Virus record (IMG/VR): IMGVR_UViG_3300005541_000008
Location: 1-64,000 of that record
DNA from: a virus
DNA: 64,000 nucleotides
Direction: 5' to 3' (one strand)
The position numbers were made by a program, and so were the translations under genes. Below are positions 4,202 through 60,836 of this stretch, piece by piece (within the stretch, counting starts at the first letter, position 1; each line of letters starts with the position of its first letter). The notes beneath the pieces were generated by a model. It saw nothing but the letters and a program-made list of their open reading frames with translations. It was not told where the DNA came from and did not search any database.

Positions 4202-4204
4202 GCA

Positions 4205-6977: not shown

Positions 6978-7255
6978 CTTATTTCTCCTTTGCTGGTGGA
7001 TAATTGCCCAGAGCACGACGCCCCAGGCCCCTTGGCCCTCACTGACAGAAGGCAACTCCCTTTTCGGTCATAACACCTTCAAACAATCTCACCGTTACGG
7101 CACGCTTGAGCCTGAACTCCACTTCCTCCCGGGAAACGCGTCGGTCGTCGAGCATCTTACGGAGCGTTGCTGCTTCCTTCTCGATGAGCGCGGCAACCGC
7201 CTTTGCAACGGGCTCGGAGAATGCGTGGACTGTACGGAGATCCTGGTTAGTCATC

Positions 7256-8453: not shown

Positions 8454-8627
8454 AGCGCTAAGCTACCTCCTCCATTCGGTCGTCGAGCCCCGAGACAATC
8501 TCCGCCATCACGTCAACCTTATCCACCCCGTGTTCGTTCGCAATATCCTCGGCCATCGCTTCGATCGTGACCCAAGCCTGCTCACACATCTCATCAACAT
8601 CCTTAAGATACCCCGTAGCATCCCGAC

Positions 8628-11037: not shown

Positions 11038-11040
11038 ATT

Positions 11041-11724: not shown

Positions 11725-11748
11725 GATTTAGGTAGGGTGTAAACATTA

Positions 11749-12318
11749 TCAAGGCTCGTCTCTCTGAATAATCCTCAGCACAGCGTCTTTGGCCTTCCTT
11801 ACCACCTCGGGACAATGATGAAAAACAACCTCGGAATTATCCTGTCTCTGCGCCGTGCGCGACCAGTTCCAACTCCCAATAACCACGGTTTGCGTGTCCT
11901 CGATAACGAGCATTTTATTATGCTCTAGGACGCCCACAGGCTTCACGACAAGATCGACCCCCGCCTTGATCAAGAGGGCGTGGAGATCGGAGCGTCCTGC
12001 GGCTTGCTTCTTGTCCTCTCCGCCCTTCACAATCCGGATTAGGTCGTCAGCGAGGGCGTGATTTGAGATGCCATAAAGGGAGAAAAAGATTGGCCCTCGG
12101 GAATTACTCAACTCTTGGTGAATTACGTCCTCAATATCCTCGTAAGGCGAAAAATACACGTCGAAGGTGCACGTAGGAGGCGGTCCGATTATCGTCAGCG
12201 CCCCCGTAGCTTGCCCCCCGATGCTCGGCGCTGCGGGTTGTGCGTCGGAAGAATGAAGCCCTGCAAAGAACCTCACCAAAACCACCGCGGTTGCGACCGC
12301 TGCCCAAAATCGTCGCAT
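11749..12318 (-). CDS. Phospholipase D-family (single HKD) nuclease/phospholipase with signal peptide
   Basis: HNKMLVIED...GSWNWS...DNSE and VYFSP; hydrophobic N-terminus. Confidence 0.85.
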   Translation of the reverse strand: MRRFWAAVATAVVLVRFFAGLHSSDAQPAAPSIGGQATGALTIIGPPPTCTFDVYFSPYEDIEDVIHQELSNSRGPIFFSLYGISNHALADDLIRIVKGGEDKKQAAGRSDLHALLIKAGVDLVVKPVGVLEHNKMLVIEDTQTVVIGSWNWSRTAQRQDNSEVVFHHCPEVVRKAKDAVLRIIQRDEP

Positions 12319-12521
12319 TAATGCACTTCCTCCTTCGTCTTGAGCGTGAAAGGTCCGCGCCTCGTTACGGCAAAGAGTTCTAACTCCCGCTTCTCGGCGA
12401 TAATCATTATTTCGTTGCCCCTAAGAAGTGGGTAGCCATTCTCTCTACTCACATCAACCCCGCCAATCCACACATCCCGCTTATACGGACCTAACGTTAT
12501 CTTCCGCTTTCCGCACGCCAT
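12318..12521 (-). CDS. Small protein resembling the C-terminal part of the penton-like protein
   Basis: VWIGGVDVSRENGYPLLRG...LFAVT vs VFLGNGGVTTTSGFPLLEG...LFGVS. Confidence 0.5.
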   Translation of the reverse strand: MACGKRKITLGPYKRDVWIGGVDVSRENGYPLLRGNEIMIIAEKRELELFAVTRRGPFTLKTKEEVH

Positions 12522-13305
12522 CCGTCGCCGTCCTCGCTTCCTCCCACGCCTTCACAACTCTTTCATCGACAGGCTGCCGCAAAAACACATAAACCTGGCA
12601 CTTACACCGCGTGCAGCTCATTCTCAGCTTAAGGCGATCCGCGGCCACAAAGGGAATTAGCATGTTATGGCAATTAAGACACCTTACCTCCCCACCTTCG
12701 CTCAACTCTTTGGTCCTAAAGAAGTTTCGGCCGCCCACGTGCTCCCCTTAACGTCTTTTCGACAGCACCCTTCACGCCCTCGAGGATCTGCGACACGAAC
12801 GCTGTCGCTGTGCCCTCAAGGTCTTTCGCAAGCAACTCGGCTTCGTCGACCGCCGCACTTCTCACCGTCTCGACGATTCGCTCCGCCGCGCGACGCACCT
12901 TCCTCTCGACACTCGCACTCGTTGTTGGGGGCTTAAACCTTCTCGTCGTCATCGCCCTACCGGCTGCACCTCGAGTCCCGCGCGCTTCGCAATCCACTGG
13001 AGCACTTTCGACGTGTACTCAAGACTCGGGAGGAGGTTCTTCTCGAGTACCTCCGCCACCTGGGGGTCCGGGTTGTACTCGAGTTCAGAGTGAAGCTTCC
13101 CCACAAGCTCCTGAAGATCGCCGAGCTTCACAAACGTCGCGCTTAGCGTCTGTACGTAGCCCTGAGTTACCATCACCTGCGCTCCTTCTCCTTCTTCTCT
13201 CGCTCTTCCTTCTCACGGGACTCGTGGATTTTCTTGTTCAAGCCCTTAATCCCCCGCTCCCATTCCTCTTTCGAAATTCCCATATCTACCCACGGCTCTG
13301 CCATT

Positions 13306-13878
13306 TTACACTGGCCTCCTTGCAAATCCCGTCGCCTTAAATTGCACTTCCCAAGGCCCTGTTTGTAGCTTCGCAGAATGCGGCCACTTCACGACGAACG
13401 AAAACTTCTCGTGGGGGTTGAAAGTGAGCCTGATCCCGAGCTTTCTCCCGTTCTTGTGAATGCACACATAATTCGCGGTGAGCAGGAGTGCCATGAGGGC
13501 ATAATCACCACCCGGGAAGAGATCAGTCAAGGGCCAAGGACCGTACTCCTTGTCGCCTGCGTAGATAGAGGCGTGACCTCCCCCAACCAGCGCAGCAATA
13601 TCCGGCACGAGCAAGGCCCTGATAGGGTTTAGGCCCCTGTAAAGATAAACAACCCGAAGATCGTACACCTGGAGTAGCTTCGTTCCGAGCACTCCACACG
13701 TTATGTTCCGTCGCGAGAGATCTTCCTCCCCCGACGCGCCAAACACGAGCTCCTTCGTCTTCCCTGACACGAAAGGGAGCGTGTCGTAGAGGGTGTAGTC
13801 GACGTCCTCGGGAACAGATAACACCCGGGTCGTCCTTCGAAGCTCTGCCGTAACCGTCTCTACAACCCCAGATTCCAC
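13306..13878 (-). CDS. Divergent paralog of the putative major capsid protein
   Basis: DYTLYDT, LTFNPHEKFSFVV, ATGFARRPV correspond to WQPLYDR, ITLNPYENFSVV, LQGFMRRPT. Confidence 0.65.
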   Translation of the reverse strand: MESGVVETVTAELRRTTRVLSVPEDVDYTLYDTLPFVSGKTKELVFGASGEEDLSRRNITCGVLGTKLLQVYDLRVVYLYRGLNPIRALLVPDIAALVGGGHASIYAGDKEYGPWPLTDLFPGGDYALMALLLTANYVCIHKNGRKLGIRLTFNPHEKFSFVVKWPHSAKLQTGPWEVQFKATGFARRPV

Positions 13879-13988
13879 TTCACATCACCTCTACCGCACA
13901 GGACAAAACTTCACATTACCCTTACCGTACAGCGCCGCACCGTACCTCACCAATACTTTACGATACCATACCGACGCGCCACAAGACT
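13875..13988 (-). repeat. Orphan NGYNN/NGGYNN array filling the 5' UTR of the capsid paralog
   Basis: Reverse complement parses exactly into 18 pentamers and 4 hexamers (114 nt): agtct tgtgg cgcgt cggtat ggtat cgtaa agtat tggtga ggtac ggtgc ggcgc tgtac ggtaa gggtaa tgtga agttt tgtcc tgtgc ggtag aggtga tgtga agtgg. Confidence 0.85.
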
Positions 13989-14721
13989 AAGCTTCACGTA
14001 CGCCACCCTAAGCCCTTGGGCACCTCGAACTCATTAATTACCTCAACACCCCCGTCTTCGGTGTCCCTCTCAATTCTCACCTCTGCCGAGAGCCGAATCC
14101 GCCTAAAATCCCGACCTTCTATCGCCGCCCGATAAAACATGTCCGTGGTTCGGTGTGCTTCTTCAATCTCCGCAGCCCCTAGCAATGAACGCCCGTAGAA
14201 GACATGCGTCACTACCTCTTCCCTTTTGCGTTCCTCGCCTTCGAAGATATCCACAATAATCTTATACATAACGCAGCGCCCTGTGTTAAGTGAAGGAGCG
14301 ACCGAATCCGAGCCACCAGCTCCGGTCGCCCCCTCTCTGTCCACTTCACGCTCCCCCAACAGGGCGTAAAGGGACCCCGGCTACTACGAAGACACCCAAA
14401 TCTCCTCGAACGTGACTAATGCGCCCTGCTTAAGCTCAGCAGCGAGACCGTAGGTCTCGTAGAGACGGAGCTCTAGAGCGCACTTCCACCCCGGAGGCCG
14501 ACGCTCGCCCACATCAACCGTATACGGGATGCCCACCATTCCGACTTCTACCTGCTCCGAGTGAGGGAGATCCTCAAAACACGTATAGCACATAAAGGCG
14601 TTGCGCTTAACATTCACGCCCATATACCGCGTCGTACCGCAATACCCGCAGCGAGCGAGGAAGAAAGCCCACCGCTCCACCTCGGTCTTGAGATCGAGAT
14701 TCTGCAGAGATGGATCCACAC

Positions 14722-15315
14722 TCACACCTTATTCGCGCGAAGCGTCACGCGCAACTCATCCACAACATTAATATAATGATCGAGCGCAAATTCCTTGTGC
14801 TCTTGTGGGAGCCCTTCAAAATCCGGATGGAAGATGAGCTCTGACTTCTCGAGTGTGAAGTCTGCCTTGATCGGGTAGTGGTCAACGCCAAGCCCTAAAC
14901 GCCCCCGTGAGGAGAAGTAGTGGAAGAACGGCACACAAAGACCGCGTTTGTGCGTCGGGTCTTGATGCGTACCCACCGAACTCCAGTAAGGTCCGATGAC
15001 GGAGACCTCCGCGAACGGCGCACACACCCTCCACAACTCGTCCATGAAGCCGATCGGCTCGGGCACGTGCTCGAGGAAGTGCCTAACCACGACCTCACTG
15101 TACGTGTTGTCCTCCAAGCCCTTCCAAGGGTACTCGAAGAGGTTGAGCTCGAGGTCGCACTTCACGCGGCTGTCAAAATCGACATTCACCCAATCCTTTC
15201 GGTAATCGTGGCCGCAACCCAAGTTCAGCTTCTTAAACGTGTTTAGGGTCGCGGTCGATTTCCACGACGCACTATGCTCGACAAGCTCCTCTCCCCGTTC
15301 TTTTGTCTCCATCAC
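14722..15315 (-). CDS. Class I SAM-dependent methyltransferase
   Basis: KLNLGCG, NVD, HFLEHV, DPTH motifs. Confidence 0.85.
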   Translation of the reverse strand: MMETKERGEELVEHSASWKSTATLNTFKKLNLGCGHDYRKDWVNVDFDSRVKCDLELNLFEYPWKGLEDNTYSEVVVRHFLEHVPEPIGFMDELWRVCAPFAEVSVIGPYWSSVGTHQDPTHKRGLCVPFFHYFSSRGRLGLGVDHYPIKADFTLEKSELIFHPDFEGLPQEHKEFALDHYINVVDELRVTLRANKV

Positions 15316-15962
15316 CGCACCTTTCGTAAGTACCCAGAAGGATTAAAAGTGAGTAAGAACTTATGACACGTCTCGTCGACCTCAAACGCCGCACCTTCCT
15401 CTAAGGAGAGAAACTCCTTAACCGCTTCCATGGGTCCCGGACCCGCGCCCGGCCTTATAGGATGGCCGTTGAGATTCGTGTCTTCAACAATGAGATACGA
15501 GCCTGTAGTAACTAGGGGCGCGTACATCACCATTTCATCGAGCACGTGGTGCGCGTTGTGATCGCTATCAAGCACCACCATAACCGGCGACTTGCCCGCG
15601 ACGAGATTTTCGATAGCGTTCTGCGTAGCGATCTCCGTGCTGCTCCCGACAAGCTGCACAATCTCGGGCGTTCGCAACTCGTGACGCTGCTCGAGGTCCA
15701 CGGTAACCACAAGAGGACTCTCAATCCTCGAAAGCAACATACACCCGAGCATCCAGGCCGCAGAACCCCCAACATACGTACCCGTCTCGACAACCGCCTG
15801 GGGCCGGACCTTCGAAATAAGCTCCTGATAAAGCCAGAGATCCGTGGGCGCTTTCTTCACGGGGATGCCTAGAAAGAAAGTCCGGTTCTCCCAAACCTCG
15901 CTCTCGTGGTAGAGGCGGTTGAACTCGCGAATCGTGTCGAGTGCGTTCTCTGTTTCCTGCAT
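15312..15962 (-). CDS. CmcI / rhamnosyl O-methyltransferase family protein
   Basis: KAPTDLWLYQE, VETGTYVGGS, VLDSDH, GSYLIVEDT, TFNPSGYL. Confidence 0.9.
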   Translation of the reverse strand: MQETENALDTIREFNRLYHESEVWENRTFFLGIPVKKAPTDLWLYQELISKVRPQAVVETGTYVGGSAAWMLGCMLLSRIESPLVVTVDLEQRHELRTPEIVQLVGSSTEIATQNAIENLVAGKSPVMVVLDSDHNAHHVLDEMVMYAPLVTTGSYLIVEDTNLNGHPIRPGAGPGPMEAVKEFLSLEEGAAFEVDETCHKFLLTFNPSGYLRKVR

Positions 15963-17084
15963 CTAAAACACCCTACCGGTCACGTAATCGAAATGCCCTA
16001 TCGTAACCCGTGTGTCAACTCTCGGCTTAACTCCCGTCTCCTCCGCGCACTTTTGCCAGAACCACGCGTCCTCTGTATGTACTAAGTACTGTCTTGGTGC
16101 GACAAGTTCATGCCCTGTCTTAAACCTCGGCTTCGAAATCTTCTTAAACAACTCCGAGCGGAAAAGACAGTAATCGAGTCCCGTGCCATCGCACTCGACC
16201 AGGTCGCCGTGCTTAAAATCCCTTCCCGGTCTCAGGAGGCCGATATGCCCTGTCTTCCACATTAAGGGTTGCGGGTAGGGCATCTTCATGTGGTAGAGTC
16301 CCGCGGCTGTTTCGAGCTTGTGATCGAGAAGGGTGTCGAAGAGCATAGGCATACCCACGGGAGGCGAAAGCATATCATCGCCGAGGAAGACGAAGTAGGA
16401 AGGAAGGGGGTCGAGGGAAAGGAGGTGGTCAATACACCGTTCGCGGGCTTCTGCAACCTCGAGGCCCTTAACAATCGCCATCTCCCTTATCGACGCGACA
16501 GGAAACGCCATTTGGAAAAAGTGGAGGATAAACGCGAGCGACACATAACCCAAAGTCGGGACGGCAACTACAATTGTATGCTCCGGGTTTGTAGGAGGCT
16601 TCAGCCCTGATAACGGAGGCGGTTCTTCTTCCCCTTCCGCGTCTAAGTCGAGCCAGGAGACTTCTTTGAGCGCGGCGGTAAGTTTGCCGTCTTTGAAGGG
16701 GAGGTCTTTGAGCATCCCGGGACGGACGATAAGCGCCTTGTGATCGGGACTCACAACACCCACGACATCATCGGGCTCCTTCATCCACCTCTCCCAAATC
16801 CCGAAGGCAATATGCTTCGGTGCCTCGAGAAGAAACACTGCGTCCGGCGCTTTCGGCAACACCCGCGTGTATTGGATCGCATTATTCACGGAGCCCCCAA
16901 AGTCTGGGTGAGTAACCCCCCAAATCCCGCGCTCTACATTCGGCGGGAAGCCTATACTCAACACCTCACCCGCCCATTCAATCGGTAGGAGTTTCGCGGT
17001 TGCAATAAGGGCGAGCATGAGCGAAGGACGTTTGTAAGTGCCCTGTGCGACGATCTTGAACGCGTCCCGTGTTAGGGTTGCCAC
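15963..17084 (-). CDS. GT-A fold glycosyltransferase-like protein
   Basis: VAVPTLG, VAEARE, FLGDDM, GTGLDYCLF, TEDAWF, VDTRVTIGH. Confidence 0.7.
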   Translation of the reverse strand: MATLTRDAFKIVAQGTYKRPSLMLALIATAKLLPIEWAGEVLSIGFPPNVERGIWGVTHPDFGGSVNNAIQYTRVLPKAPDAVFLLEAPKHIAFGIWERWMKEPDDVVGVVSPDHKALIVRPGMLKDLPFKDGKLTAALKEVSWLDLDAEGEEEPPPLSGLKPPTNPEHTIVVAVPTLGYVSLAFILHFFQMAFPVASIREMAIVKGLEVAEARERCIDHLLSLDPLPSYFVFLGDDMLSPPVGMPMLFDTLLDHKLETAAGLYHMKMPYPQPLMWKTGHIGLLRPGRDFKHGDLVECDGTGLDYCLFRSELFKKISKPRFKTGHELVAPRQYLVHTEDAWFWQKCAEETGVKPRVDTRVTIGHFDYVTGRVF

Positions 17085-17450
17085 TATTGAATCCTCGCCG
17101 TTTCGTGCTTAAGATATTGATTCACATACCCCATGTACGCTTTGTACAAATCCCCTGACTCTACCCATCCATAAGCGATAACCTTATCCTTACGCACAAA
17201 GAGGGGGTCGACATAGAGGATACTGAAGAGAGGGCTCCCGACGGGCAAAAACGTCACCTGCTCTGCCCGCGCTCCTCGTACAGCTCCCGTTTGGGGCACC
17301 AAATCCGTGATCATGGTGTTTGTGGCCGCGTCGCGCAACTCAAAACACTCTGGGTCAGACGACGGGTCAGCTTCCTTCCCCACGATGAGCTCGTTTTGCC
17401 CTATCATAAGCACTATTACCCTTCCCTCCATGCCGATCCCCTCTCGTGGC

Positions 17451-17714
17451 TTACTGGATGATTGAGTGGAAGAACTGTGTCACGAGCGTCCAGGTCTCCG
17501 TGTTGCTGCCCCTGTTAAACAGGGTGACGGAGTTCGAGTCCCATTGCGCCGTTAAATACGCGGCGGGGACGTTTGTCGCGATCGTTGCGGCGGAATATGT
17601 TGCAATCCCCCAAACGATATGCGGCAGACGCCCTAGGCCGTGCGCGAAGGTTGTCGAACCGGAAGACGCTAACGACACAGTCCTCGTGTCGATAAAGGTT
17701 CCCAGTAACGTCAC
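17451..17714 (-). CDS. Small beta-sandwich protein (fibre/lectin-like)
   Basis: TFAHGLGRLP motif, all-beta pattern. Confidence 0.5.
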   Translation of the reverse strand: MTLLGTFIDTRTVSLASSGSTTFAHGLGRLPHIVWGIATYSAATIATNVPAAYLTAQWDSNSVTLFNRGSNTETWTLVTQFFHSIIQ

Positions 17715-17765
17715 GGGTCCTACCTCCTATACGGTATCGGAGGCGCACACATCCCGGCGCACAAT

Positions 17766-19493
17766 TCACGGCACCCTCTCGAGTAGTTGGCCATCATCCG
17801 CGCAGTGCGGATTCTCGGCAAGTTCTCCCTCGGAGCGAAACGTCCAATCCGTTCCACACTGAGAGCAACGAGCCATGATGAGGTTTTGCTGCTGCTCAGC
17901 TGCCCAACCCAAAAACCCCTTAAAATAGGCTTTCGCGGTAGCAGTCCCGAAGAAGTTCCCGCCCCACCGTTGCACAGTTCCCAGCACATCGTCCGGCGGA
18001 ATTTGCCCGGCGAGAATTTGCTCGAACTGTTCAGGGGTCGTTATTCTCGCGAGAAGTTCTTCGAGTTGTGGATAAAAAGCCCGGTCGTTCGCTTCTGCTG
18101 CGTTGCGTATTGCCTGAAACACGGGTAGCATTGCTTCTTCCTTTACTACCTCTGCTTGCATAACGGGTTCAGCCCCCGGTTCGGTGACTGGAATGTGCTC
18201 AACAACCGGCGCCGGAGGAGGCGGCGGAGGTGGTGCGGTTGCTTCGGGCCCGAGCGGTTCTTGCGCTTCAACCGGAGACGTCTCGGAGAGAGGAGACGGT
18301 GATGGAGACGTCTCGGCGGGTAGTGGAGGTGGTGTGAAGGAAGGAGGGAAGCCTTCCATCGGTGCTCGAGGAGGCGGCTGGACTGTCGCTCGAGGAGGTT
18401 GCTGCGCCTGAGGTGGCGGAACCGCAGCTCCCGACTTGTACGCAACAATCGCCGAAACCATCCTCGCAGTATCCCCCCAAATTTTCCCCGCTTGCGGAGC
18501 GAGTGCCCTTATAAGTTCTATCGCAGGAGAGACCGGCTCCCCTCCTCCGCCTCCGCCTCCACTCTCGTGTATTAAGGGAGCGAGGGTCGTGATGAGGGTA
18601 ATCATGCGATCCGTGTTATCGGGCTGCGGTGCGCTCGGAGGAGGTGTGAAGAGCTCCTTGAGGCGAATCGCCATCTCGATAGGGTCGACAGCAGGTGTTG
18701 TGTCCCGCGGCGCTGGAGGCGCCATCGTTTTGAGGAGGCCCCCAACCCTCTCGAGGACGGCAAGAGGATCGGGGGCTGCGGGCGGTGGTGCTGGTGCTGG
18801 GGTTAACTCTTTAATCGCTTTTGCGAGCTCGACGATTGAGGGTTGCGGGGCTTGCGCAACGGGGGTTGTGGTGGGTGCCGCAGAATCTCGTCCCGTCTTA
18901 TAAATCTCGGCAACCGCTTTGAAAACCGGTGTTATGTCGGGCGTCGGAGGTGTTGCGGGCGCAGGAGGAGGTTGCATGGACTTCACAATCTCAACGGCCT
19001 TAAGAAGGAGAGCAGTCGGATCGCTTTGCGGCGCGTTACCGTTCTGGGGGTGTGTGGCGGTGACCGCAGGAGGCGGCGGCACACTGAGCGTTATGCGCTG
19101 CGCCGCAATAATTCCCGGCGTGTTTTGCTTGATGAGCTTTGCTTCGTAGATGCCGTCTGTCCACCCCCGTGCGATCGCTGCCTTGAGAACCTCGCTCTCG
19201 ATATCCTTAAGCAGCTCGGGTTGTTCGAAGTCGAGGAGGAAGACGGGGTTGTTGCCGTACTCCTTAGGCACCGGGAAGCGCTTGTAGAGCTTTATGTAAT
19301 AGCCCTCGCCCGCCGGAATGTGCGAAAAGAGATTCGCAACAGTTTCGCCCTCTGGAGGTGCTGACGGAACGAGGATTTCGTCAGGTGGACGCTCGGGCAG
19401 CGAGCCGTCGGATTTGTCGCGGTCCGCATCCCTCACCCGATCACGTCCCATCGAGACGATTGCGTCGTCTACCGTAGCGCGCGGCTTGGCCAT
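17766..19493 (-). CDS. Large Pro-rich protein with C-terminal Zn ribbon; first gene of the late operon
   Basis: Repeated Pro-linker/short-helix units; CSQC...HCADDG at the C-terminus. Confidence 0.7.
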   Translation of the reverse strand: MAKPRATVDDAIVSMGRDRVRDADRDKSDGSLPERPPDEILVPSAPPEGETVANLFSHIPAGEGYYIKLYKRFPVPKEYGNNPVFLLDFEQPELLKDIESEVLKAAIARGWTDGIYEAKLIKQNTPGIIAAQRITLSVPPPPAVTATHPQNGNAPQSDPTALLLKAVEIVKSMQPPPAPATPPTPDITPVFKAVAEIYKTGRDSAAPTTTPVAQAPQPSIVELAKAIKELTPAPAPPPAAPDPLAVLERVGGLLKTMAPPAPRDTTPAVDPIEMAIRLKELFTPPPSAPQPDNTDRMITLITTLAPLIHESGGGGGGGEPVSPAIELIRALAPQAGKIWGDTARMVSAIVAYKSGAAVPPPQAQQPPRATVQPPPRAPMEGFPPSFTPPPLPAETSPSPSPLSETSPVEAQEPLGPEATAPPPPPPPAPVVEHIPVTEPGAEPVMQAEVVKEEAMLPVFQAIRNAAEANDRAFYPQLEELLARITTPEQFEQILAGQIPPDDVLGTVQRWGGNFFGTATAKAYFKGFLGWAAEQQQNLIMARCSQCGTDWTFRSEGELAENPHCADDGQLLERVP

Positions 19494-19512
19494 ATTGAGA
19501 ATTCCCGGGTTG

Positions 19513-19716
19513 TGTGCCGTGTTGCGGTGCGGTGCGGTGCTCTGCGCGTGGCTCGTGGCTCGGTAGGTGCGGTGATGTATTGCAACGCTGCCGCGCTGTA
19601 TACTGCCATATGCAACGTGGCAGCGTTGCGTGTGCAGTGCCTTCTAGCGCCCGCTACGGCTTTCCGACTCCGGAGTGCGTAGCGTTGCTTTGCGCCACAG
19701 GGCGCGGTGCAGCGCC
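19513..19716 (+). repeat. Degenerate NGYNN pentamer tract with embedded hairpin
   Basis: tgtgc cgtgt tgcgg tgcgg tgcgg tgctc tgcgc (19513-19547); ggtgc ggtga tgtat tgcaa cgctg (19566-19590); further short runs; stem gcaacgctgcc/ggcagcgttgc. Confidence 0.5.
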
Positions 19717-19877
19717 TTGAGGCAGATAGCGCGAGGTTGTGTAGGGCCTCTGCTATCTTGAAGTCAATTTTAACACAGAAAATTTGAATAGGCAACTCGG
19801 AATTTTGAGTTTTGAGCTCTTTTTTCTTTGAGGCCTTGAGTTATGCTCGTTATCCCCTGTTATGCTCCTTGCTTTGA

Positions 19878-19951
19878 CCTCTTATATATCATAATATACA
19901 TAGTATCTTATGTATTTTATAATAATTTGTATGTATAATAATATATAAGAG
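19878..19951. other. Very AT-rich imperfect palindrome at the strand switch
   Basis: ctcttatatat...atatataagag flanking AT-rich sequence in a GC-rich genome. Confidence 0.55.
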
Positions 19952-20018
19952 AGCAAAACAGTAGTCATTTTGTGGCCCTACTGGGGCACAAATCGCGCAC
20001 GGACCATAGGGAGGAGCC

Positions 20019-37704: not shown

Positions 37705-37779
37705 TCACGGGTCGTCTAATTGGCAGGACGACGGACTCTGAATCCGTAAACGGGGGTTCGATGCCCTCCCCGTGAACCA
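37705..37779 (+). tRNA. tRNA-Gln (CTG)
   Basis: Acceptor TCACGGG/CCCGTGA, anticodon arm ACGGA-CTCTGAA-TCCGT, TTCG T-loop, encoded CCA. Confidence 0.9.
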
Positions 37780-37938: not shown

Positions 37939-38793
37939 GTGAAGAGGGGTGATGGGTGGGTAAGGAAAATGAAGCCGTGTATTCTCACCGTGAAGCGCGG
38001 GAGATATTATTGTGAGCAGCATAAGAGGTACTGCGTGCTCGATAAGAACCGGACAACCCCGACTTACCAGTGTCCTATGAGGGGGGAAGTGATAAAGATC
38101 CGCGCGAAGAAGAAGAGGGTGCCGAAGGCGCTCGAAGCCGCGTTTAACAGCGTTTACACGTTTACGGACACGCTGCGCGGGATCTTGGGTAAGTGCGGCT
38201 TCGTGGAGGGGTGTAAGATAGCGCGGATGCTCGTACATTGGAAGGGCGAGGTGGAGCGTCTCGTGGGGACAGAGGGGCAGCGTCCGGTCGATGTCGCGGC
38301 GAATATGCACACTGCAATCGACACGCTTATTGAAGAGGATAAAAGGAGGTCGCCGGATGAGTATGAGAAGGTGCGGTGCTCGAAGGGGTGCGCGTTCTGT
38401 TGCGAGTTGTATGTCACGGTTACTGAGCAGGAGGCTGAACTGCTTGTTGAAGGGGCGAAGGAGAACGGATGGGAGATTGATCGTGCTCGTCTCGAGAAGC
38501 AAATTTCATTTACTGACGGGAAGGCGTGGGCCGCTGCGCCGAGAGAGGAGAGAAGGTGCGTGTTTTTGGCGGAGAACGGTACGTGTGCGGTGTACGAGTA
38601 TAGGCCCATGGCGTGTAGGTGCTTGTTTGTGTTTAGTGAGCCGTCGGAGTGTAATGTCGAAACGAGCAAGCACGTTTGGAGGTTAGCTGTGATCGAGGCT
38701 GAGGTAGCGACGACAGCTGCGATCACGGTTCTTGGGACTGGCTCCTTAGCGGAGATGGTCCGTGCGAAGTTAGGGCAGAGTGGAGTTTTGTAG
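37939..38793 (+). CDS. YkgJ-family cysteine-cluster (Fe-S/Zn) protein
   Basis: CSKGCAFCC...CVFL...CAVYEYRPMACR. Confidence 0.85.
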   Translation: MKRGDGWVRKMKPCILTVKRGRYYCEQHKRYCVLDKNRTTPTYQCPMRGEVIKIRAKKKRVPKALEAAFNSVYTFTDTLRGILGKCGFVEGCKIARMLVHWKGEVERLVGTEGQRPVDVAANMHTAIDTLIEEDKRRSPDEYEKVRCSKGCAFCCELYVTVTEQEAELLVEGAKENGWEIDRARLEKQISFTDGKAWAAAPREERRCVFLAENGTCAVYEYRPMACRCLFVFSEPSECNVETSKHVWRLAVIEAEVATTAAITVLGTGSLAEMVRAKLGQSGVL

Positions 38794-39636
38794 AGTAGGG
38801 GCGCGGCGAGGTAGCGTTTTGTAGCGGCGTGGTATGGTAATGTATTGCGACGGCGTAGTACTGTGGCGTAGGGTAGCGGCGCGCTATTGTGGGGTAATGT
38901 AACGGCGAGGTGTGGCACTGTGTTGTAGTGTAAGGCGAAGGCGCAGCATGGTGTAGTATCGCGATGGCATGGCATAGTACCGTGTTGTAACGGCAAGGTA
39001 AAGTATCGCAGGGGATCGCGGTGGCATAGTGCAGTGTTGCAACGGTATTGCGTAGTGCAGTGTTGTATCGGTAAAGCGCGGCATAGTGCCGGCAAAGTGC
39101 AGCGGTGCGTTGGTAAAGTGTGGTATAGTGCCGTCGGGGTATAGCCGTGTGACGTATTGTGCCGGCAAAGTGCGGTGTGGTAGGGTAAGGGTAAGGTAAT
39201 GCACTGTATCGTGGAGGCAAAGTGGAGCGTGGTATGGCGCGGGTAAAGTGTAGTTTCGTGTAGTGGTGTACCGGCATTGCGATGTGTTGTGGAGCATGGG
39301 CAAGGTGCAGTATTGTATCGTGTCTGTAGGGTCCGGTAATGTATCGCGTCGGCAAGGTGCAGCATTGTTCCGTCTAGGTAAAGTGTGGTATCGCGTGGGT
39401 ATAGTTTGGTAAAGTGTGGGTATAGTTTGGTAAAGTGCGGTAGTGGTAAAGTTCAGCATCGCGTTGTGGAGTGCTGTTTGGGTGAGGTGCGGCATAGCTC
39501 TGTGCAGCGAGGGTGTAGTGCGGTGCAGTAGTGGCAATGCAGTGTGTAGCATCGGCATTGTCTTGTAGGGCGCTGTAGCGTGGGGGCATTGTCTCGTAGG
39601 GTACAGCGGGGGTGTAGCAACGTATAGTAACGGCAA
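38773..39636 (+). repeat. Non-coding NGYNN pentamer array 1 (upstream of RAMP gene)
   Basis: Near-continuous parse, e.g. cggcaa agtgc ggtgt ggtag ggtaa gggtaa ggtaa tgcac tgtat cgtgg aggcaa agtgg agcgt ggtat ggcgc; a hexamer NGGYNN roughly every 3-5 pentamers; ends at the RBS of the RAMP gene. Confidence 0.9.
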
Positions 39637-39650
39637 AGGAGGAGGAGAGC

Positions 39651-40301
39651 GTGGCAAAAGCAACGAAGGATAAAGAAGCGAAACCAGTACCGCGTGTGGG
39701 CAAGGTCGTTTACGATGTCGATATTACACTGACCGAGCCTATGTTGGGCACAGTGCCTTATAACAAGGAGATCTACGCGGAGTTTATCGAGAAGAGCAAG
39801 CCCAAGGAGATCTCCGAGGACGAGACGGCGACGGTGCCCGAGAGGGATGAGAAGACGGGGTGGACAGGGTTTCACGTTGACGAGAATGGCAAGGGCCTCT
39901 TCATCTACGATTACATGGTGAAGGGGTTTATGAAGAACGCGGCATCGTCGCTCAAGGAGTTCGACGACGTCGGGAAGGAGGAGAAGGGGCAGAAGCAACT
40001 CATCAACAACCTCGTTTTTGTGTTTCCGCGGCGGATCTTTCTCCATAAGAAGAAGGGTGATGGAGTGCTGGAACGTCCGCTGAGAGCGCAGACGATGCAA
40101 GGGCCTCGCGTAACACTCGTGCGCTCAGATCAGGTCGCAGAGGGCACCAAGTTCAAGTGCGAGATTATTGTGCTTGACGGGAATCGAATTACCGAAGCTA
40201 AGCTCCGGAAGTGGCTTGACTACGGAGCGTTTATGGGCCTTGGGCAGTTTCGTAATGGATCGTATGGGAGATTTACGTACGAGATGGTGAAGCGGCGGTA
40301 A
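39651..40301 (+). CDS. Stand-alone Cas7/RAMP-superfamily RNA-binding protein
   Basis: N-terminal strand VDITLTEPMLG, IYDYMVKGFMKNA helix, ERPLRA thumb-like region, C-terminal Gly-rich loop YGAFMGLGQFRNGSYGRF; AGGAGGAGG RBS. Confidence 0.8.
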   Translation: MAKATKDKEAKPVPRVGKVVYDVDITLTEPMLGTVPYNKEIYAEFIEKSKPKEISEDETATVPERDEKTGWTGFHVDENGKGLFIYDYMVKGFMKNAASSLKEFDDVGKEEKGQKQLINNLVFVFPRRIFLHKKKGDGVLERPLRAQTMQGPRVTLVRSDQVAEGTKFKCEIIVLDGNRITEAKLRKWLDYGAFMGLGQFRNGSYGRFTYEMVKRR

Positions 40302-41926
40302 GGCGTAGTAGGGTAAAGTACGGGCACTGTGGAGCGTTGTGAAGTGAAGGTGAAGCAGAGTGTTGTATCGGCTCAGCAGAGTGCTGTAGTGCGCTGGTAA
40401 GGTGAAGTGTAGTAAAGCTTAGGCGCGGTGTTGTACCGTGTGGCGATGGCGGGGGTGAGGTGTGGCTCAGTAGTGTGTTGGTAAAGTAAAGCGTTGCGAT
40501 GTGTCGGTAAAGTATTGCGATGCGTGGTAAAGCGGCGGTATGGTGCAGCGCTGTAACGGTAGGGTCTAGTGATGTAATGCTACGGCAGAGTAATGCGATG
40601 TCGTGCGATGGCAGAGCAGAATACCGTGATGTAGAGGTATGGCAAAGCAGGGTGTTGTAGCGTGCGGGTATGGTGTAGCGCAATGCTGTAGAGTAACGGT
40701 GTGGTGGAGCAGGGTAGCGTGGCGGTACGGTGATGCACTGCGGAGTAATGTAGCGGTCTAGTATAGCTCTGTTACGTACGGTAACGGTACTGCATAGCTT
40801 TGTTGCGTAAGGCGTAGGTAATGCGTTGTTCGGTAGGGTAGTGTGGCGGTACTGCGTAGTGTGGTGGAGTGCCGTGGTGGTACTGCCTTGTTGAGTTAAG
40901 TGGAGTTCTGGCAGAGTAAGGCAGAGCGCTGCAGCGGTGTTGCGATGTTCTGTGTGGGTATTGTGACGTATAGTGGCGGTAAAGTGGAGTCCTGTAACGG
41001 CGCTGCATGGTACCGTATCGCACAGGTATTGTATAGCATGGCCCCGCTTTGGTAGGGTATGGCATCGTACGGGTAAAGTATCGCAGAGTCCTGCTTTGGT
41101 AAAGTTCAGCATGGTTTGGTACCAGTAGTGTTGGGTGCGGTGATGTGGGGTTTTGGTAAAGTATGGTGTCGTGCTGCGTGGGTACAGCGATGTAGAGTGA
41201 CGTATTGGTAGAGTGCTGCAATGTGGCGGTACAGTTTTGTCTTGTGGCGTGTCGGCAAAGTCCGGCTTTGTGCTGTTGCGGTAACGTATGGTGTCGTACA
41301 GCGTTGGTAAAGTGTCGTCGTGTGGCGCGTAGGTAAAGTGCTGCAGTGCGGGGCTTTGGTAAAGCTTGGTGTTGTGCTGTTGTGGTATAGTAGCGTCGTG
41401 TAGCGCACGGGTAAAGTCTGGTGTTGTGCTGCGGCGGTAAAGTGTTGCGCTGTGCTGCGGCGGTAAAGTGTGGTGGTGTGGCGCGTAGGTAAAGTTTTGT
41501 GTTGTTTCGCGGTGGTCTTGTGTTGTGCCGTAATGGTTTTGTACTGGTGCAGTTTGGCGATGTGCCGTGTTGGTAAGGCGCGGTCATGTAACGTGTTGGT
41601 AAAGTCTAGTGATGCAATGCTTCGGTAAAGCGGTGTGGTGCGTTGGCATTGTGCAGTACTGTAATGCGCTGGTAAGGCGCGGTCATGTAATGCTTTGCTT
41701 TGGTAGCGCAGTGTGCAGTAACGGCAGAGTACTGTAGCGTGCCGTGACGGCAGAGCAGAGTTAGGTAAGGCGGCGGTAGAGTTAGGTAATGTAACGGTAG
41801 AGTAGCGTTGCGTAATGGCGTAGTGGAGTATAGTGATGTAATGGCGTAGCAGAGTAGAGTTATGTAACGGCGTTGTATAGTAGTGTGTAGCTGTAGGTGT
41901 AGTACAGTGAAGTGGCGTGACGGCGG
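40296..41926 (+). repeat. Non-coding NGYNN pentamer array 2 (downstream of RAMP gene)
   Basis: Begins in the RAMP stop codon (cggTAA); e.g. cggtaa agtgt tgcgc tgtgc tgcgg cggtaa agtgt ggtgg tgtgg cgcgt aggtaa agttt tgtgt tgttt cgcgg; ~1.6 kb. Confidence 0.9.
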
Positions 41927-41935: not shown

Positions 41936-42328
41936 ATGGTCAACGTCGGGATTGTGGGATCGAGAGCGAGGACAGCGCCCGAGGATAAGGAGCGCACGAG
42001 GGTGGCGCTTCTCGAGCTGCTCGATGAGTTTGGTAAGGAGAACGTTACCATTGTCTCTGGAGGGTGTCCTGACGGCGCTGATCAGTTTGCCGAGCAGTTT
42101 GCCGCGGAGTACGGCTTGCCCAAGATTATCCACCATCCCGATAAGAGTAAGTTAAGGGCGAAGGCGCGTTGGGCGTATGCGGAGATATACCACGCGCGAA
42201 ACACATTCGTGGCGCGGGATGCCGAGGTGCTTATTGCCGTGATTAATAAGGGGAAAGAGGGTGGCACGGAGCACTGCGTGAGAGAGTTCTTGAAGATGGG
42301 GAAGAAGAGGTTGGTGATTATCGAATAA
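41936..42328 (+). CDS. SLOG-superfamily (DprA/YspA-like) nucleotide-binding protein
   Basis: VGIVGSR, IVSGGCPDGAD..AE, YHARN, GGTEH. Confidence 0.8.
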   Translation: MVNVGIVGSRARTAPEDKERTRVALLELLDEFGKENVTIVSGGCPDGADQFAEQFAAEYGLPKIIHHPDKSKLRAKARWAYAEIYHARNTFVARDAEVLIAVINKGKEGGTEHCVREFLKMGKKRLVIIE

Positions 42329-42331: not shown

Positions 42332-42404
42332 TGCGCCGTAGGCTAATGGTAGTCCGCTGGTCTCATAAGCCAGACGCTCCGGTTCGATTCCGGACGGCGC
42401 AACC
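42332..42404 (+). tRNA. tRNA with CAT anticodon (Met or Ile2)
   Basis: Acceptor TGCGCCG/CGGCGCA, CTGGT-CTCATAA-GCCAG, GGTTCGATTCC; CCA not fully encoded. Confidence 0.85.
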
Positions 42405-58816: not shown

Positions 58817-59071
58817 ATGAGGGGAGAAACGAAAGAAGGTGGAATAACTGCTCGCGAGATAATGCAAGCAATCGTAACTTGGAAGCCGCCGATATTTCCC
58901 CGCGACCTACACACAAAACTCGGTATACCGACGGAGCAGTGTGGTCGCAGGATGCAGGTGCTTCATCATTGGGGATGCGTAAAATACGCGGAGCCGGGGA
59001 AGCGTGGGTGGCGCGGCTATGAGGTCACGGAGTGGGGAAGGAGATATGCAAGAGGAAAAGAGGAAGTGTAG
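58817..59071 (+). CDS. Small winged-HTH protein
   Basis: DLHTKLGI...RRMQVL...G.V...YEVTEWG. Confidence 0.55.
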   Translation: MRGETKEGGITAREIMQAIVTWKPPIFPRDLHTKLGIPTEQCGRRMQVLHHWGCVKYAEPGKRGWRGYEVTEWGRRYARGKEEV

Positions 59072-60836
59072 TAAGTGTGGACTCGAAAAGGGCGCCGGAG
59101 ATTTCTACGTCGGGCCCGGTAATTGGTGTAAAGAGTGCAGAAGAAGCTATGTGCGAGGACGCCGGTCTACTCGTAGAGAGCGCGGTAAGCAGCGTCTCTA
59201 TCCTGAGCAGTGGCCTATTCTTTTACAGCACGTAACAAATAAGGAAGCGCTCCTCCTTTTTGACTTACTGCAGAGTTGCGGATTACGCCCCACAGAAGCG
59301 CTCGCTCTCAGAGCCGAGAGTTTTGATTTTTCTCGAGGTACCGTAACGGTAAAGAATACAGATCGCGGGGAAGAGAGAACCCTAATCATGCTCGTGCGTG
59401 CGGATTTGCTAATCGCTTTGGAGGAAAGGAAGGGGTCCATCGATATAAAGCCCCAGATAGCCCGTAAGGTTTTTAGAGAGGCAGTAGCTGCCGGAAAGTC
59501 TGCTCTCGAGAAAGTCACAGAGGAGTATCCTAACGAGGAAAAGCCGGACACGGATGGTCTGAGTATGGCGTCGCTCCGCTACACCTTCGGCCTGCGCCTC
59601 TACAGCATCGGTGCACGAGAGCCCGAGTTTTCCGCTCTCCTTCGGCTCAGATCACGCGAGCCAGTGTGGCCTAACTTCGAGCTTATGAACGAACTCCTAA
59701 AGAAAAGCTGGGAACAGCAACCAAGACTCTGGACTCCGCGTGAGACTTTGGTGGTTTATAATAAGGACGGACTCAAGAAGTGCACACGATGCAGCCAGGA
59801 GAAACCTCCGGAACAGTTCACTCCCGGAGTGAGTAGGTGTCTACAATGCGTTAATGAAGTAGTCCAACCTTATATGGAGAAGCGTAAGAAGGGAGAAGAC
59901 GGTAAACGCAACAAACGCAAGAAAGCGTGGTATGTGTATCCAGATCGCGCGAAGTGGTCACCTAGAGAGAGAATACTCTATCCTGAGCAGTGGCCGAGAT
60001 TCTGGCGGGCTGTGAAGGAGTATAAGTTCCGGATGATCTTCGATCTTATGCAGAGCTGCGGACTCCGTGCTAGAGAAGCCCTCTATATCGGACCGAAGGA
60101 CTTTGACTTCGACCGCGGAGTACTTGCCGTGCGCACGCTAAAACAAGTAGAACGACCAGTGCACGACGTGTTTGTGCGTCCTGACATACTAAGGAGGCTA
60201 AGGAGTATAAAAGTAGACACGGAAGGAAGATACTTCGACTTCGAGTACCCAACCCTATGGGACGAGTTTAAAAGGGTCGCCAAAGAAGTAGGCCTCGATC
60301 CGAAACTCGGAACACACGCGCTACGTCATTGTTGTGCGGTAAGACTAGGGCGGCTTCCTTCTGCAAACGAGATGCAAGCTAGAGCTCTCCTTCGACACAG
60401 TCCAATCAACGTAACACAAGGCTACGCGCAGCCTATAGAAGACCCGCTAAAGCATCAGGAGATTTGGGATCAGTCTTGGACCGAGCAAGAGTGGATCTGG
60501 ATAGCTCTCTTAACAGGGGCTCCTGATTGGGATCAGAGTGAACTAGGATGGATAGAAGAAGATCGCAAACGCGCGACTCGTGACGGATGGATAGATCCCG
60601 AGAGGTGGCAGGCCCTCGTAGACTCGTTGGGGAATAAATGTCTCTGTTGCTGGAAGCAGCCTCCTGATACGACGCTCTACGCAGATCATATAGTTCCGCC
60701 GAGCGCCGGAGGGTTGTGGATCGAGTCCAATCTTCAGCCTCTTTGCCGCACCTGCAATAGCTCGAAGGGTGCAAGGAAGGTAAACTTTCGCAAAAACCCC
60801 CAAGCGGATAGGTCATGGTGCGCTCATCCCCGCTAA
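59046..60836 (+). CDS. Zn finger-tyrosine recombinase (degenerate)-Zn finger-tyrosine recombinase-HNH fusion
   Basis: Duplicated LYPEQWP...FDL.QSCGLR..EAL; second copy has R, K, HALR, H, Y; C-terminal CLCC...DHIVP..GG....NLQPLCRTCNSSKG. Confidence 0.8.
   Translation: MQEEKRKCSKCGLEKGAGDFYVGPGNWCKECRRSYVRGRRSTRRERGKQRLYPEQWPILLQHVTNKEALLLFDLLQSCGLRPTEALALRAESFDFSRGTVTVKNTDRGEERTLIMLVRADLLIALEERKGSIDIKPQIARKVFREAVAAGKSALEKVTEEYPNEEKPDTDGLSMASLRYTFGLRLYSIGAREPEFSALLRLRSREPVWPNFELMNELLKKSWEQQPRLWTPRETLVVYNKDGLKKCTRCSQEKPPEQFTPGVSRCLQCVNEVVQPYMEKRKKGEDGKRNKRKKAWYVYPDRAKWSPRERILYPEQWPRFWRAVKEYKFRMIFDLMQSCGLRAREALYIGPKDFDFDRGVLAVRTLKQVERPVHDVFVRPDILRRLRSIKVDTEGRYFDFEYPTLWDEFKRVAKEVGLDPKLGTHALRHCCAVRLGRLPSANEMQARALLRHSPINVTQGYAQPIEDPLKHQEIWDQSWTEQEWIWIALLTGAPDWDQSELGWIEEDRKRATRDGWIDPERWQALVDSLGNKCLCCWKQPPDTTLYADHIVPPSAGGLWIESNLQPLCRTCNSSKGARKVNFRKNPQADRSWCAHPR

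What the first reader, a model, noticed from the sequence alone, without database searches (positions are those of the whole stretch)
38773..41926. Lone Cas7/RAMP-like gene between two long NGYNN pentamer arrays: candidate non-CRISPR RNA-guided system
Seen: about 0.86 kb upstream and 1.63 kb downstream of 39651-40301 parse almost without breaks into 5-nt units N-G-Y-N-N, with a 6-nt NGGYNN unit (often nggtaa/nggcaa) roughly every 3-5 pentamers, giving mostly 21/26/31-nt modules. The GY is fixed and the other positions vary, so this is neither a simple satellite nor a repeat-spacer CRISPR. The arrays abut the gene exactly: array 1 ends at its RBS and array 2 starts in its stop codon. Established: the protein has RAMP hallmarks (N-terminal strand, C-terminal Gly-rich loop), and Cas7-type RAMPs polymerise on RNA with a fixed nucleotide step. 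No cas1, cas2, cas3, cas5, cas6, large subunit or CRISPR array is seen in the window. Inference: each protomer grips one GY and displays the variable bases, so the target is encoded discontinuously in the NN positions, with hexamers marking register shifts or processing sites. A plausible role is silencing competing viruses or host genes. From memory, a phage RAMP system with GGY/NN repeat RNAs ('VIPR') has been reported recently. I cannot verify that here; this locus would be a variant with a free first position and hexamer punctuation, in an apparently tailless virus.
Basis: partly seen in the sequence, partly recalled or inferred. Interest (0 to 1): 0.96.

Follow-up and report, generated by a model that had tools for sequence, protein, structure and literature searches.

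The report
Viral VIPR locus with giant arrays
This 77-kb uncultured virus carries a VIPR system, a CRISPR-like RNA-guided DNA silencer first described in 2026 preprints. It is a real and unusually large example (about 98 short guide modules around one Cas7-like gene) of a published class, not a new kind of system.

Summary
The sequences 38773-39635 and 40296-41926 parse, with one unassigned base in 2.5 kb, into 98 modules. Each module is one NGGY(A/G)N hexamer plus 3-6 NGYNN pentamers, giving lengths of mostly 21, 26 or 31 nt. The arrays abut the gene at its RBS and at its stop codon.

The 216-aa protein folds as a Cas7/Csm3 RAMP (pLDDT 91, Z 12.8). It is a remote full-length homolog of the SUSP1 Vipr family (hhalign 96.7%, E 3.8e-10). 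Of 160 homologous loci fetched, 158 carry a 5-nt-periodic array next to the gene with the same 5n+1 punctuation. Near-identical phages differ by whole-module indels of 26 and 31 nt.

It probably belongs to the preprint's YNNNG-repeat and tail-less "staggered array" forms. It stands out in four ways:
- It has the largest array of the 161 loci compared.
- It has no recognisable vap gene.
- It has an orphan array 25 kb away.
- Both residues that contact G1 in SUSP1 are lost, which fits N at repeat position 1.

No targets were found. Expression, processing and the reading rule remain inferred. This scan has noted VIPR-like loci in over 300 other genomes.

The parts
38773..39635 (+). vrRNA array 1: 33 modules of NGGYRN plus 3-6 NGYNN. 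It starts inside the last 20 nt of the upstream ORF (stop at 38793) and ends at the vipr RBS.
   Evidence: Autocorrelation; DP parse; parse score far above the genome background.
39636..39645 (+). Shine-Dalgarno-like AAGGAGGAGG upstream of the GTG start of vipr.
   Evidence: Read directly from the sequence.
39651..40301 (+). vipr gene: 216-aa stand-alone Cas7-like RAMP. G-loop GLGQFRNGSYGRF at residues 196-208; thumb hairpin at about 138-162.
   Evidence: AF2 pLDDT 91. Foldseek E 1e-8 to type VII Cas7 and Csm3. VIA Z 12.8, 12.7 and 12.6. hhalign to the SUSP1 Vipr family 96.7%, E 3.8e-10, 185 columns. 1550 clusters of relatives.
40296..41926 (+). vrRNA array 2: 65 modules. The first hexamer, CGGTAA, contains the vipr stop codon. 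The array ends 10 nt before the next gene.
   Evidence: TRF periods of 21, 26 and 78 occur only here and in array 1.
13860..13999 (-). Orphan mini-array of about 5 modules (26, 21, 31, 31 nt ...) with the same grammar. It lies in the intergenic leader of ORF 13306-13878, 25 kb from vipr.
   Evidence: Period-5 scan; sequence; DP parse, highest-scoring window outside the main arrays.
19507..19590 (+). Short, degenerate NGYNN tract next to the divergent intergenic region. Whether it belongs to the system is uncertain.
   Evidence: Period-5 scan; weak parse score of 0.18-0.19 per nt.

Best explanation
This is a VIPR (Viral Interference Programmable Repeat) system with a tail-less, punctuated array.

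Proposed mechanism. The locus is transcribed on the + strand together with its neighbours. Vipr protomers bind the RNA one per 5-nt unit. They sequester the fixed G and Y and expose the variable bases. Each NGGY(A/G)N hexamer adds one nucleotide and carries the only canonical GGY. It therefore breaks the filament register and marks the boundary of a short guide of 4-6 units (21-31 nt). The locus would then supply about 98 different mini-guides, plus about 5 from the orphan array. Following the published type II system, each Vipr-vrRNA filament should bind double-stranded DNA through gapped pairing. In that code the variable bases pair and one target base per unit is skipped. Binding would repress transcription of competing mobile elements or host genes.

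Shown here: the repeat grammar; the RAMP fold; homology to Vipr; the gene-array linkage across the clade; and that the module is the unit of gain and loss.

Inferred: transcription, processing at the hexamers, DNA rather than RNA targeting, the reading rule, and the targets.
For: Grammar and boundaries.

Fold: pLDDT 91. The top 36 VIA rows are all CRISPR RAMP subunits, mostly Cas7-type; Csm3 scores Z 12.8 and 12.7 and type VII Cas7 scores Z 12.6. Foldseek gives E 1e-8.

Homology to the characterised Vipr: profile-profile hhalign of 67 clade members against 35 SUSP1-family members gives Prob 96.7%, E 3.8e-10 over 185 columns. The PDB chain 36pp_D, 'SUSP1 Vipr protein', appears weakly in the profile search.

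Linkage: 78 of 80 IMG/VR loci, and 158 of 160 loci overall, have a co-oriented period-5 array abutting the gene. In these arrays lags 26 and 31 exceed lags 25 and 30, so the 5n+1 punctuation is clade-wide.

Module as unit: phages with 99.7-99.8% identical vipr differ by clean indels of 26 and 31 nt bounded by the boundary motif. In this locus all 98 modules are distinct, and nearby modules are slightly more alike than distant ones (0.36 against 0.305, p about 0.004).

Residue logic: the SUSP1 residues that read G1 are H17 (31/35) and D177 (29/35). In this clade H17 falls in a 5-residue loop that is absent, and D177 is replaced by Gln (64/67). The W178 and R179 equivalents are kept as W/F and R (66/67). 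This fits NGY instead of GGY.

No CRISPR components or array.

Published mechanism and variants.
Against: No RNA or binding data exist for this locus or, as far as the texts I could read show, for staggered arrays. The preprint says only the ribozyme and single-vrRNA forms were confirmed by sRNA-seq.

No target was found in the virus's own genome, in 3.3 Mb of related loci under seven reading rules, or in IMG/VR by four exact patterns.

A 5-unit guide read as NN carries only about 17 bits. That is too little for a unique site in a bacterial genome. Either a third base per unit is read, or guides act together, or guides span several modules.

No vap gene and no conserved 3' tail are present. 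No promoter or terminator signal exceeds chance. The residue mapping rests on a remote alignment, and the thumb residue R138 could not be mapped.
Confidence: 0.82

Rival explanations
1. It is the same VIPR system, but the hexamers are tolerated one-base bulges inside long guides. Several modules, or the whole array, would form one long filament that reads a long target. The extra base would re-phase the filament about once per helical turn.
For: The published DNA-bound filament has five protomers per turn and the RNA-only filament has six. That is close to the modal 5 units per module here and 5-6 in the clade. Longer guides would solve the low information content of one module. TRF also reports a 78-nt, three-module period in 41301-41495.
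Against: Module length varies from 4 to 7 units. Near-identical phages gain or lose single modules cleanly. Position 4 is a purine in 83% of units (C 6%), whereas codon position 1 in this virus is 21% C; a run of hundreds of consecutive codons could not satisfy that. Two two-module xNN patterns found nothing in IMG/VR. 8-unit windows spanning module boundaries found nothing in the virus's own genome. There is no higher-order periodicity.
Confidence: 0.12
2. The Vipr-RNA filaments target RNA, like type III and type VII Cas7 backbones, or serve mainly as decoys that soak up or redirect Vipr proteins of rival elements. They would not silence DNA.
For: The closest solved folds are RNA-targeting Csm3 and type VII Cas7. 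The profile hits type VII Cas7 (E 2e-4) more strongly than SUSP1 Vipr (E 0.13) in a plain sequence search. Satellite-encoded solo vrRNAs that redirect VIPR to decoy sites are published. The variable dinucleotides correlate best with sense codon positions 1-2 (r 0.56), which is also compatible with mRNA-like targets.
Against: The only tested members of the family bind dsDNA. The full-length profile match to the SUSP1 family is strong. The arrays sit around their own vipr gene and are not solo. No nuclease or other effector partner is seen.
Confidence: 0.05
3. The flanks are not guide genes. They would be a degenerate satellite, or coding sequence for the long minus-strand ORFs (38154-39365, 40273-41112, 40772-41587).
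For: Long ORFs of 210-403 aa are open on the minus strand.
Against: Three minus-strand frames are open at the same time, and the sequence has period 5 with no period-3 signal. A plain satellite would not keep two positions fixed at 99-100% while three drift. The same grammar follows the homologous gene in 158 of 160 unrelated genomic contexts with no other conserved neighbour.
Confidence: 0.01

Closest known systems
Type II VIPR of Escherichia phage SUSP1 (Vipr + vap1 + four vrRNAs; bioRxiv 10.64898/2026.04.26.720920 and .720927; PDB 36pp)
   Same: A lone small RAMP with RRM core, G-loop and thumb. Full-length profile homology. Co-oriented 5-nt repeats with fixed G and Y and variable bases on both sides of the gene. 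Phage-borne, with no cas genes.
   Different: SUSP1 has strict GGYNN units, 9-16 per guide, each guide ending in a tail of about 40 nt with a pseudoknot, four guides in all, and a vap1 gene. This locus has NGYNN units, 4-6 per module, no tails and one extra base per module. It has 98 modules and no vap. Both G1-contact residues are lost.
VIPR 'staggered vrRNA arrays' and YNNNG/NNNNG repeat variants (same preprint, fig. S17-S18 and methods)
   Same: [quoted passage not shown] Both match the 5n+1 modules and NGY units seen here and across this clade.
   Different: I could read only the legends, not the figures or data tables. Identity of the grammar and assignment to one of the seven types are therefore unverified. 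The preprint does not report sRNA-seq for this form. This locus is the largest of the 161 loci compared here: 2611 bp, against a median of 634 and a next largest of 1618.
Non-canonical VIPR-like clusters found by a genomic language model (bioRxiv 10.64898/2026.10.21.760802)
   Same: Period-5 arrays with units such as WGT/NN or TGH/NN next to Vipr-like folds. The unit here is close to WGT/NN: position 1 is 65% A or T.
   Different: That text describes units repeated about 10 times and does not mention periodic hexamers or module structure.
Solo or orphan vrRNAs of phages and satellites (bioRxiv 10.64898/2026.10.15.759431)
   Same: A vrRNA-like array located away from any vipr gene, like the array at 13860-13999 here.
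   Different: Here the orphan array shares the genome with a complete vipr locus. It lies in the leader of a putative structural gene, and its role is untested.
Cas7 backbone subunits of class 1 CRISPR (Csm3 of type III-A, Cas7 of type VII)
   Same: The best structural matches (Z 12.6-12.8, rmsd 2.8-3.5 A). Shared G-loop motif. These proteins polymerise on RNA with a fixed nucleotide step.
   Different: There is no CRISPR array, Cas1, Cas2, Cas6, large or small subunit. The step is 5 nt rather than 6. The protein does not match Pfam RAMPs PF03787.

Membership tests
VIPR system | Stand-alone small RAMP protein (Vipr) with RRM core, glycine-rich loop and thumb | tested here: met
   AF2 model with pLDDT 91 and pTM 0.85. 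Csm3 and Cas7 are the top hits, Z 12.8 to 12.6, Foldseek E 1e-8. G-loop GLGQ(W/F)RNG(G/S)YGRF is conserved. Beta-hairpin at residues 138-162.
VIPR system | Sequence homology to characterised Vipr proteins | tested here: met
   hhalign of clade profile A1 against SUSP1-family profile A3: Prob 96.7%, E 3.8e-10, 185 aligned columns. Against the single SUSP1 sequence: 86.6%, E 4.4e-6.
VIPR system | Flanking co-oriented tandem 5-nt repeats with fixed GGY (or related) and variable NN | tested here: met
   381 pentamers with G2 at 99% and Y3 at about 100%, and variable positions 1, 4 and 5. The unit is NGY, not GGY; the preprint allows a 'related consensus', including YNNNG.
VIPR system | Gene-array association conserved among homologs | tested here: met
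   158 of 160 homologous loci from IMG/VR and GTDB genomes have an adjacent period-5 array.
VIPR system | No cas genes and no CRISPR array; viral or proviral context | tested here: met
   Cas1, Cas2, Cas6 and RAMPs Pfam models do not match in the 77-kb virus record. There is no CRISPR-like repeat. The record is an IMG/VR virus encoding family A polymerase, primase and integrase. Cas3, Cas5, Cas8 and Cas10 were not searched individually.
VIPR system | vipr-accessory gene (vap1-6) next to vipr (typical, not universal) | tested here: inconclusive
   No ORF lies between vipr and the arrays. The neighbours are a CxxCxxCC-domain protein and a SLOG/YspA-like protein. Neither is conserved next to homologs. 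The vap families themselves were not available for comparison.
VIPR system, type II (SUSP1-like) | Each vrRNA has 9-16 GGYNN repeats followed by a conserved structured 3' tail | tested here: not met
   Modules have 4-7 units, abut one another without tails and are separated only by a one-base register shift. For the SUSP1 locus.
VIPR system, type II (SUSP1-like) | Residues that read G1 (H17, D177), G2 (R138, W178) and Y3 (R179) | tested here: inconclusive
   The W178 and R179 equivalents are kept (W/F200; R201 in 66/67). D177 is replaced by Gln199 (64/67). H17 lies in a loop that is absent here. R138 could not be mapped. The pattern fits a clade that reads GY only.
VIPR system | vrRNAs are expressed and co-purify with Vipr | not testable with these tools
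   No expression data are available. The promoter and terminator scan is at chance level.
VIPR system | Natural targets matching the variable bases under the 1-nt skip rule | tested here: inconclusive
   No excess of matches in the virus's own genome or in 3.3 Mb of related loci. Four exact IMG/VR pattern scans gave no hit. The databases and exact matching used give low power for 10-15-nt guides.
Class 1 CRISPR-Cas | CRISPR repeat-spacer array plus cas1/cas2 adaptation genes and a multi-subunit effector | tested here: not met
   None was found. There is only one RAMP gene.

The most novel reading that the evidence does not exclude
In this clade the guides are single-turn mini-filaments of 4-6 protomers cut from a tail-less array at the hexamers. 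Because the G1 pocket is lost, three bases per unit (GY/NNN) would be read instead of two. That is a different gapped code from the published xNN rule. It would give each 26-nt guide about 26 bits instead of 17, and it would let one virus field about 100 independent guides.
Probability: 0.15. Interest if true: 0.7.

Novelty: new member of a known kind. Interest (0 to 1): 0.42.

Why it matters
VIPR was described only in 2026, and only type II systems have been tested at the bench. This locus is a clean, very large natural example of the tail-less, punctuated array form.

Together with its 160 relatives it gives testable predictions:
- Guides of 21, 26 and 31 nt end at the NGGY hexamers.
- The module is the unit of array evolution.
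- Loss of the His and Asp contacts frees repeat position 1.

If single modules really are guides, their low information content forces one of two conclusions. Either the reading rule differs from the published one, or many guides act together. Either outcome would bear on how short a programmable DNA-binding guide can be.

The locus also extends VIPR to a 77-kb virus whose structural genes match no known phage family.

Tried and rejected
Self-targeting. 8-unit windows and whole modules were tested under NN rules with skips of 0-3 and NNN rules with skips of 0-2 against the masked 77-kb genome. The results matched shuffled guides.

Clade-wide target search. 1702 unique modules were tested against 3.3 Mb of held loci by exact and one-mismatch gapped k-mers. 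Only the period-5 rules (NNN skip 2, NN skip 3) showed an excess, which I attribute to unmasked array-like DNA rather than targets. NNN skip 1 gave 26 exact matches against 15-19 in shuffles, which is not convincing. Two earlier versions of this script timed out.

IMG/VR exact pattern scans. Two two-module xNN patterns and one 7-unit module read as xNNN and as contiguous NNN all gave zero hits.

Decoding the arrays as pseudo-peptides for a protein-motif search was left out.

A conserved accessory gene was sought. Nothing in this genome's neighbourhood recurs next to homologs. The neighbour clusters among the loci are dominated by one population of about 45 near-identical phages.

Direct sequence searches gave nothing. 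There was no Pfam or PHROG hit, and plain phmmer against the PDB gave only noise.

RNA folding of two 300-nt array pieces gave z-scores of -0.88 and -3.16, which is uninformative. Rfam found only the two flanking tRNAs.

Other assemblies of the same virus. Strain-level comparison of this virus's own arrays was therefore not possible.


Full report
OBSERVATION. Base-match autocorrelation peaks at lag 5 (0.42-0.44) and more strongly at lags 21, 26 and 31 (0.46-0.51). Background is about 0.26. The gene itself and two control regions are flat. A dynamic-programming parse that allows 5-nt units (N-G-Y-N-N), 6-nt units (N-G-G-Y-N-N) and penalised junk bases splits 38773-39635 into 33 modules and 40296-41926 into 65. 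Only one base is left over. 376 of 381 pentamers and 96 of 98 hexamers fit the pattern. Modules are 21 nt (19 modules), 26 nt (58), 31 nt (15) or 36 nt (2). Pentamer position 2 is G (99%) and position 3 is C or T (about 100%). Position 4 is a purine in 83%, and positions 1 and 5 are near random. The hexamer is N-G-G-Y-(A 73%, G 22%)-N and is often followed by A-G-T. The same parse applied to every 180-nt window of the 77-kb genome on both strands has a median of 0.036 per nt, against 0.30-0.34 in the arrays. The best 27 windows all lie in the two arrays. No periodicity above the module level exists, and all 98 modules differ. The arrays abut the gene exactly. Array 1 runs into the AAGGAGGAGG ribosome-binding site, and the TAA stop codon is part of the first hexamer of array 2.

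THE PROTEIN. Pfam, PHROGs and a plain PDB sequence search give nothing. An exhaustive HMMER search finds 1550 clusters of relatives at E<=1e-3, of which 158 are at E<=1e-30. With 66 of them as the alignment, AlphaFold2 gives a confident model (pLDDT 91.2, pTM 0.85). Foldseek against the PDB puts type VII Cas7 and type III Csm3 at the top (E about 1e-8, probability 1.00). An independent all-against-all structural search gives Csm3 at Z 12.8 and 12.7 and type VII Cas7 at Z 12.6. All of the first 36 rows are CRISPR RAMP subunits, mostly Cas7-type. The C-terminal motif GLGQ(W/F)RNG(G/S)YGRF is the glycine-rich loop.

LINK TO VIPR. Two April 2026 bioRxiv preprints describe Viral Interference Programmable Repeat systems. 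In these, a lone ancestral RAMP (Vipr) polymerises one protomer per repeat on vrRNAs made of GGY/NN pentamers. The complex binds dsDNA by pairing only the NN bases while skipping every third target base, and it represses transcription of rival phages and satellites. I located the reference vipr gene in phage SUSP1 (KT454805.2) and collected its family. I then compared profiles: 67 members of the present clade against 35 SUSP1-family members gives hhalign probability 96.7%, E 3.8e-10, over 185 columns, which is nearly the whole length of both. The protein is therefore a remote but genuine Vipr homolog.

COMPARATIVE EVIDENCE. Eighty relatives from IMG/VR and eighty from GTDB genomes were fetched with their flanks. 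The GTDB genomes are MAGs of Bacillota, Chloroflexota, Patescibacteria, Bacteroidota, Thermodesulfobacteriota and others. In 158 of the 160 loci a period-5 tract lies directly next to the gene, usually downstream and on the same strand. Almost all show lags 26 and 31 above lags 25 and 30. The 5n+1 punctuation is thus a property of the clade and not of this locus alone. Parsed examples show the same module design with slightly different boundary motifs. In some subclades the motif is a terminal NGCAA unit before NGGC, and position 3 is sometimes A. Apart from vipr, no gene of this genome recurs widely next to the homologs, so gene plus array moves as a self-contained cassette. Five phages whose vipr genes are 99.7-99.8% identical differ in their arrays by clean indels of 26 and 31 nt, each exactly one module. 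This is the best available evidence that the module, and not the pentamer or the whole array, is the functional and evolutionary unit. Within this locus, nearby modules are slightly more alike than distant ones (0.36 against 0.305 identity at variable positions, p about 0.004). TRF sees local 26-nt and 78-nt tandem structure. Both fit growth by duplication and divergence.

DIFFERENCES FROM THE CHARACTERISED TYPE.
- SUSP1 has four guides of about 100 nt, each with about 12 strict GGTNN units and a structured tail, plus a vap1 gene. Here there are no tails and no vap-like ORF.
- The first repeat position is free.
- One extra base is inserted every 4-6 units.
- The array total of 2611 bp is the largest of the 161 loci compared (median 634, next largest 1618).

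The structure preprint names the residues that read each fixed base. In the SUSP1 family H17 (31/35) and D177 (29/35) read G1, and W178 and R179 (35/35) read G2 and Y3. In the present clade the W and R equivalents are kept (W/F200; R201 in 66/67). The Asp is replaced by Gln (64/67), and the His lies in a 5-residue loop that is missing. The loss of both G1 contacts matches the loss of G at repeat position 1. This is an inference from a remote alignment, and the thumb Arg could not be mapped.

PRIOR DESCRIPTION OF THESE DIFFERENCES. They are probably already in print. The discovery preprint states that some types use NNNGG, YNNNG or NNNNG repeats. It also describes 'staggered arrays' in which vrRNAs follow one another with a 1-nt overlap. 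An October 2026 preprint lists WGT/NN- and TGH/NN-type VIPR-like clusters, and another describes solo vrRNAs. I could read legends only, not the figures or tables. The match to 'staggered arrays' is therefore likely but unverified. The preprint says sRNA-seq confirmed the other two array forms, not this one.

LIKELY MECHANISM. The arrays, vipr and both neighbours are co-oriented and packed without gaps. Two tRNA genes bracket the block. No promoter or terminator signal exceeds chance inside it. I infer a long + strand transcript on which Vipr protomers assemble at 5-nt steps. Each hexamer carries the only canonical GGY and adds one nucleotide. That should interrupt the protomer-to-protomer register and define guides of 4-6 units. 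The filaments would then bind DNA by gapped pairing, as published.

Two observations favour separate short guides over one long filament. The first is the whole-module indels in relatives. The second is the strong purine bias at position 4 (C 6%, against 21% at codon position 1 in this virus), which a long run of consecutive codons could not meet.

The open problem is information. Five NN pairs carry about 17 bits, and adding position 1 gives about 26 bits. Either three bases per unit are read, or guides act together, or guides are longer than one module. The variable dinucleotides correlate best with sense codon positions 1-2 (r 0.56). This agrees with the published wobble-skip logic, but it is weak evidence.

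TARGETS. None was found. Searches of the virus's own genome, of 3.3 Mb of related loci under seven rules and of IMG/VR with four exact patterns were all negative or at chance. The only excess was under the two period-5 rules, which I attribute to unmasked array-like DNA. These tests have low power for guides this short, so the negative result does not count against the model.

CONTEXT. The record is a 77,360-bp linear IMG/VR virus contig with a CheckV completeness estimate of 70%. It encodes family A DNA polymerase, a primase and an integrase-HNH fusion. Its six largest minus-strand (probably structural) proteins match no Pfam or PHROG family. The same Vipr protein is recorded on a 73,265-bp Logan/ENA contig and on two JGI contigs (one of 77,360 bp, this record's length), so the locus is unlikely to be an assembly artefact. 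An orphan array of about five modules with identical grammar lies on the minus strand at 13860-13999, and a weak tract lies at 19507-19590.

VERDICT. The locus is a VIPR system of a published class, so it is a new member rather than a new kind. This scan has already noted VIPR-like loci in more than 300 genomes. Its value lies in its size, its clean grammar and the clade-level predictions it yields. Expression, processing, the reading rule and the targets remain to be shown.

Noticed in passing
window 37705-37779 and 42332-42404: tRNA-Gln(CTG) and tRNA-Met(CAT) bracket the block made up of the CxxCxxCC gene, array 1, vipr, array 2 and the SLOG gene. RNase P/Z cleavage at the tRNAs could release the array-bearing transcript, or the block may have moved as a unit.
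   Followed up: no
window 13860-13999 (minus strand): An orphan array of about five modules with the same NGGYNN/NGYNN grammar sits in the leader of ORF 13306-13878, 25 kb from vipr. It resembles the 'solo vrRNAs' described in an October 2026 preprint.
   Followed up: partly
window 1-19500 (minus strand): The six largest proteins of the leftward gene block (for example 17766-19493, 575 aa, and 960-2225, 421 aa) have no Pfam or PHROG match. The structural module of this virus is unrecognised, and the 'tailless' idea was not tested here.
   Followed up: no
window 19740-19990: A very AT-rich stretch lies between the two divergent gene blocks, exactly where the GC skew changes sign. It is probably a replication origin or a divergent promoter region.
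   Followed up: no
window 59004-60836: A 610-aa protein combines two tyrosine-recombinase matches with a C-terminal HNH nuclease domain.
   Followed up: no
window 37939-38793 and 41936-42328: The immediate neighbours of the VIPR block are a CxxCxxCC (PF03692) zinc/iron-chelating-domain protein and a small SLOG/YspA-like protein. Neither is conserved next to vipr homologs, so they are probably not accessory (vap) genes.
   Followed up: partly
L056:4001-4300: One related phage contig has a second period-5 tract 2 kb upstream of vipr that is strictly periodic. Lags 25 and 30 are high and lags 26 and 31 are low, and it is GGY-rich, so it has no hexamer punctuation. It may be a canonical-type solo vrRNA beside a punctuated array.
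   Followed up: no
L027:11801-12425: A strong 15-nt period (autocorrelation 0.63-0.65 at lags 15 and 30) occurs in a related viral contig. It is unrelated to the pentamer arrays.
   Followed up: no
L021-L080 (IMG/VR sample 3300045988): About 45 near-identical phage contigs of about 58 kb from one sample carry vipr with arrays that differ by whole modules. They are a ready-made data set for studying array turnover.
   Followed up: partly
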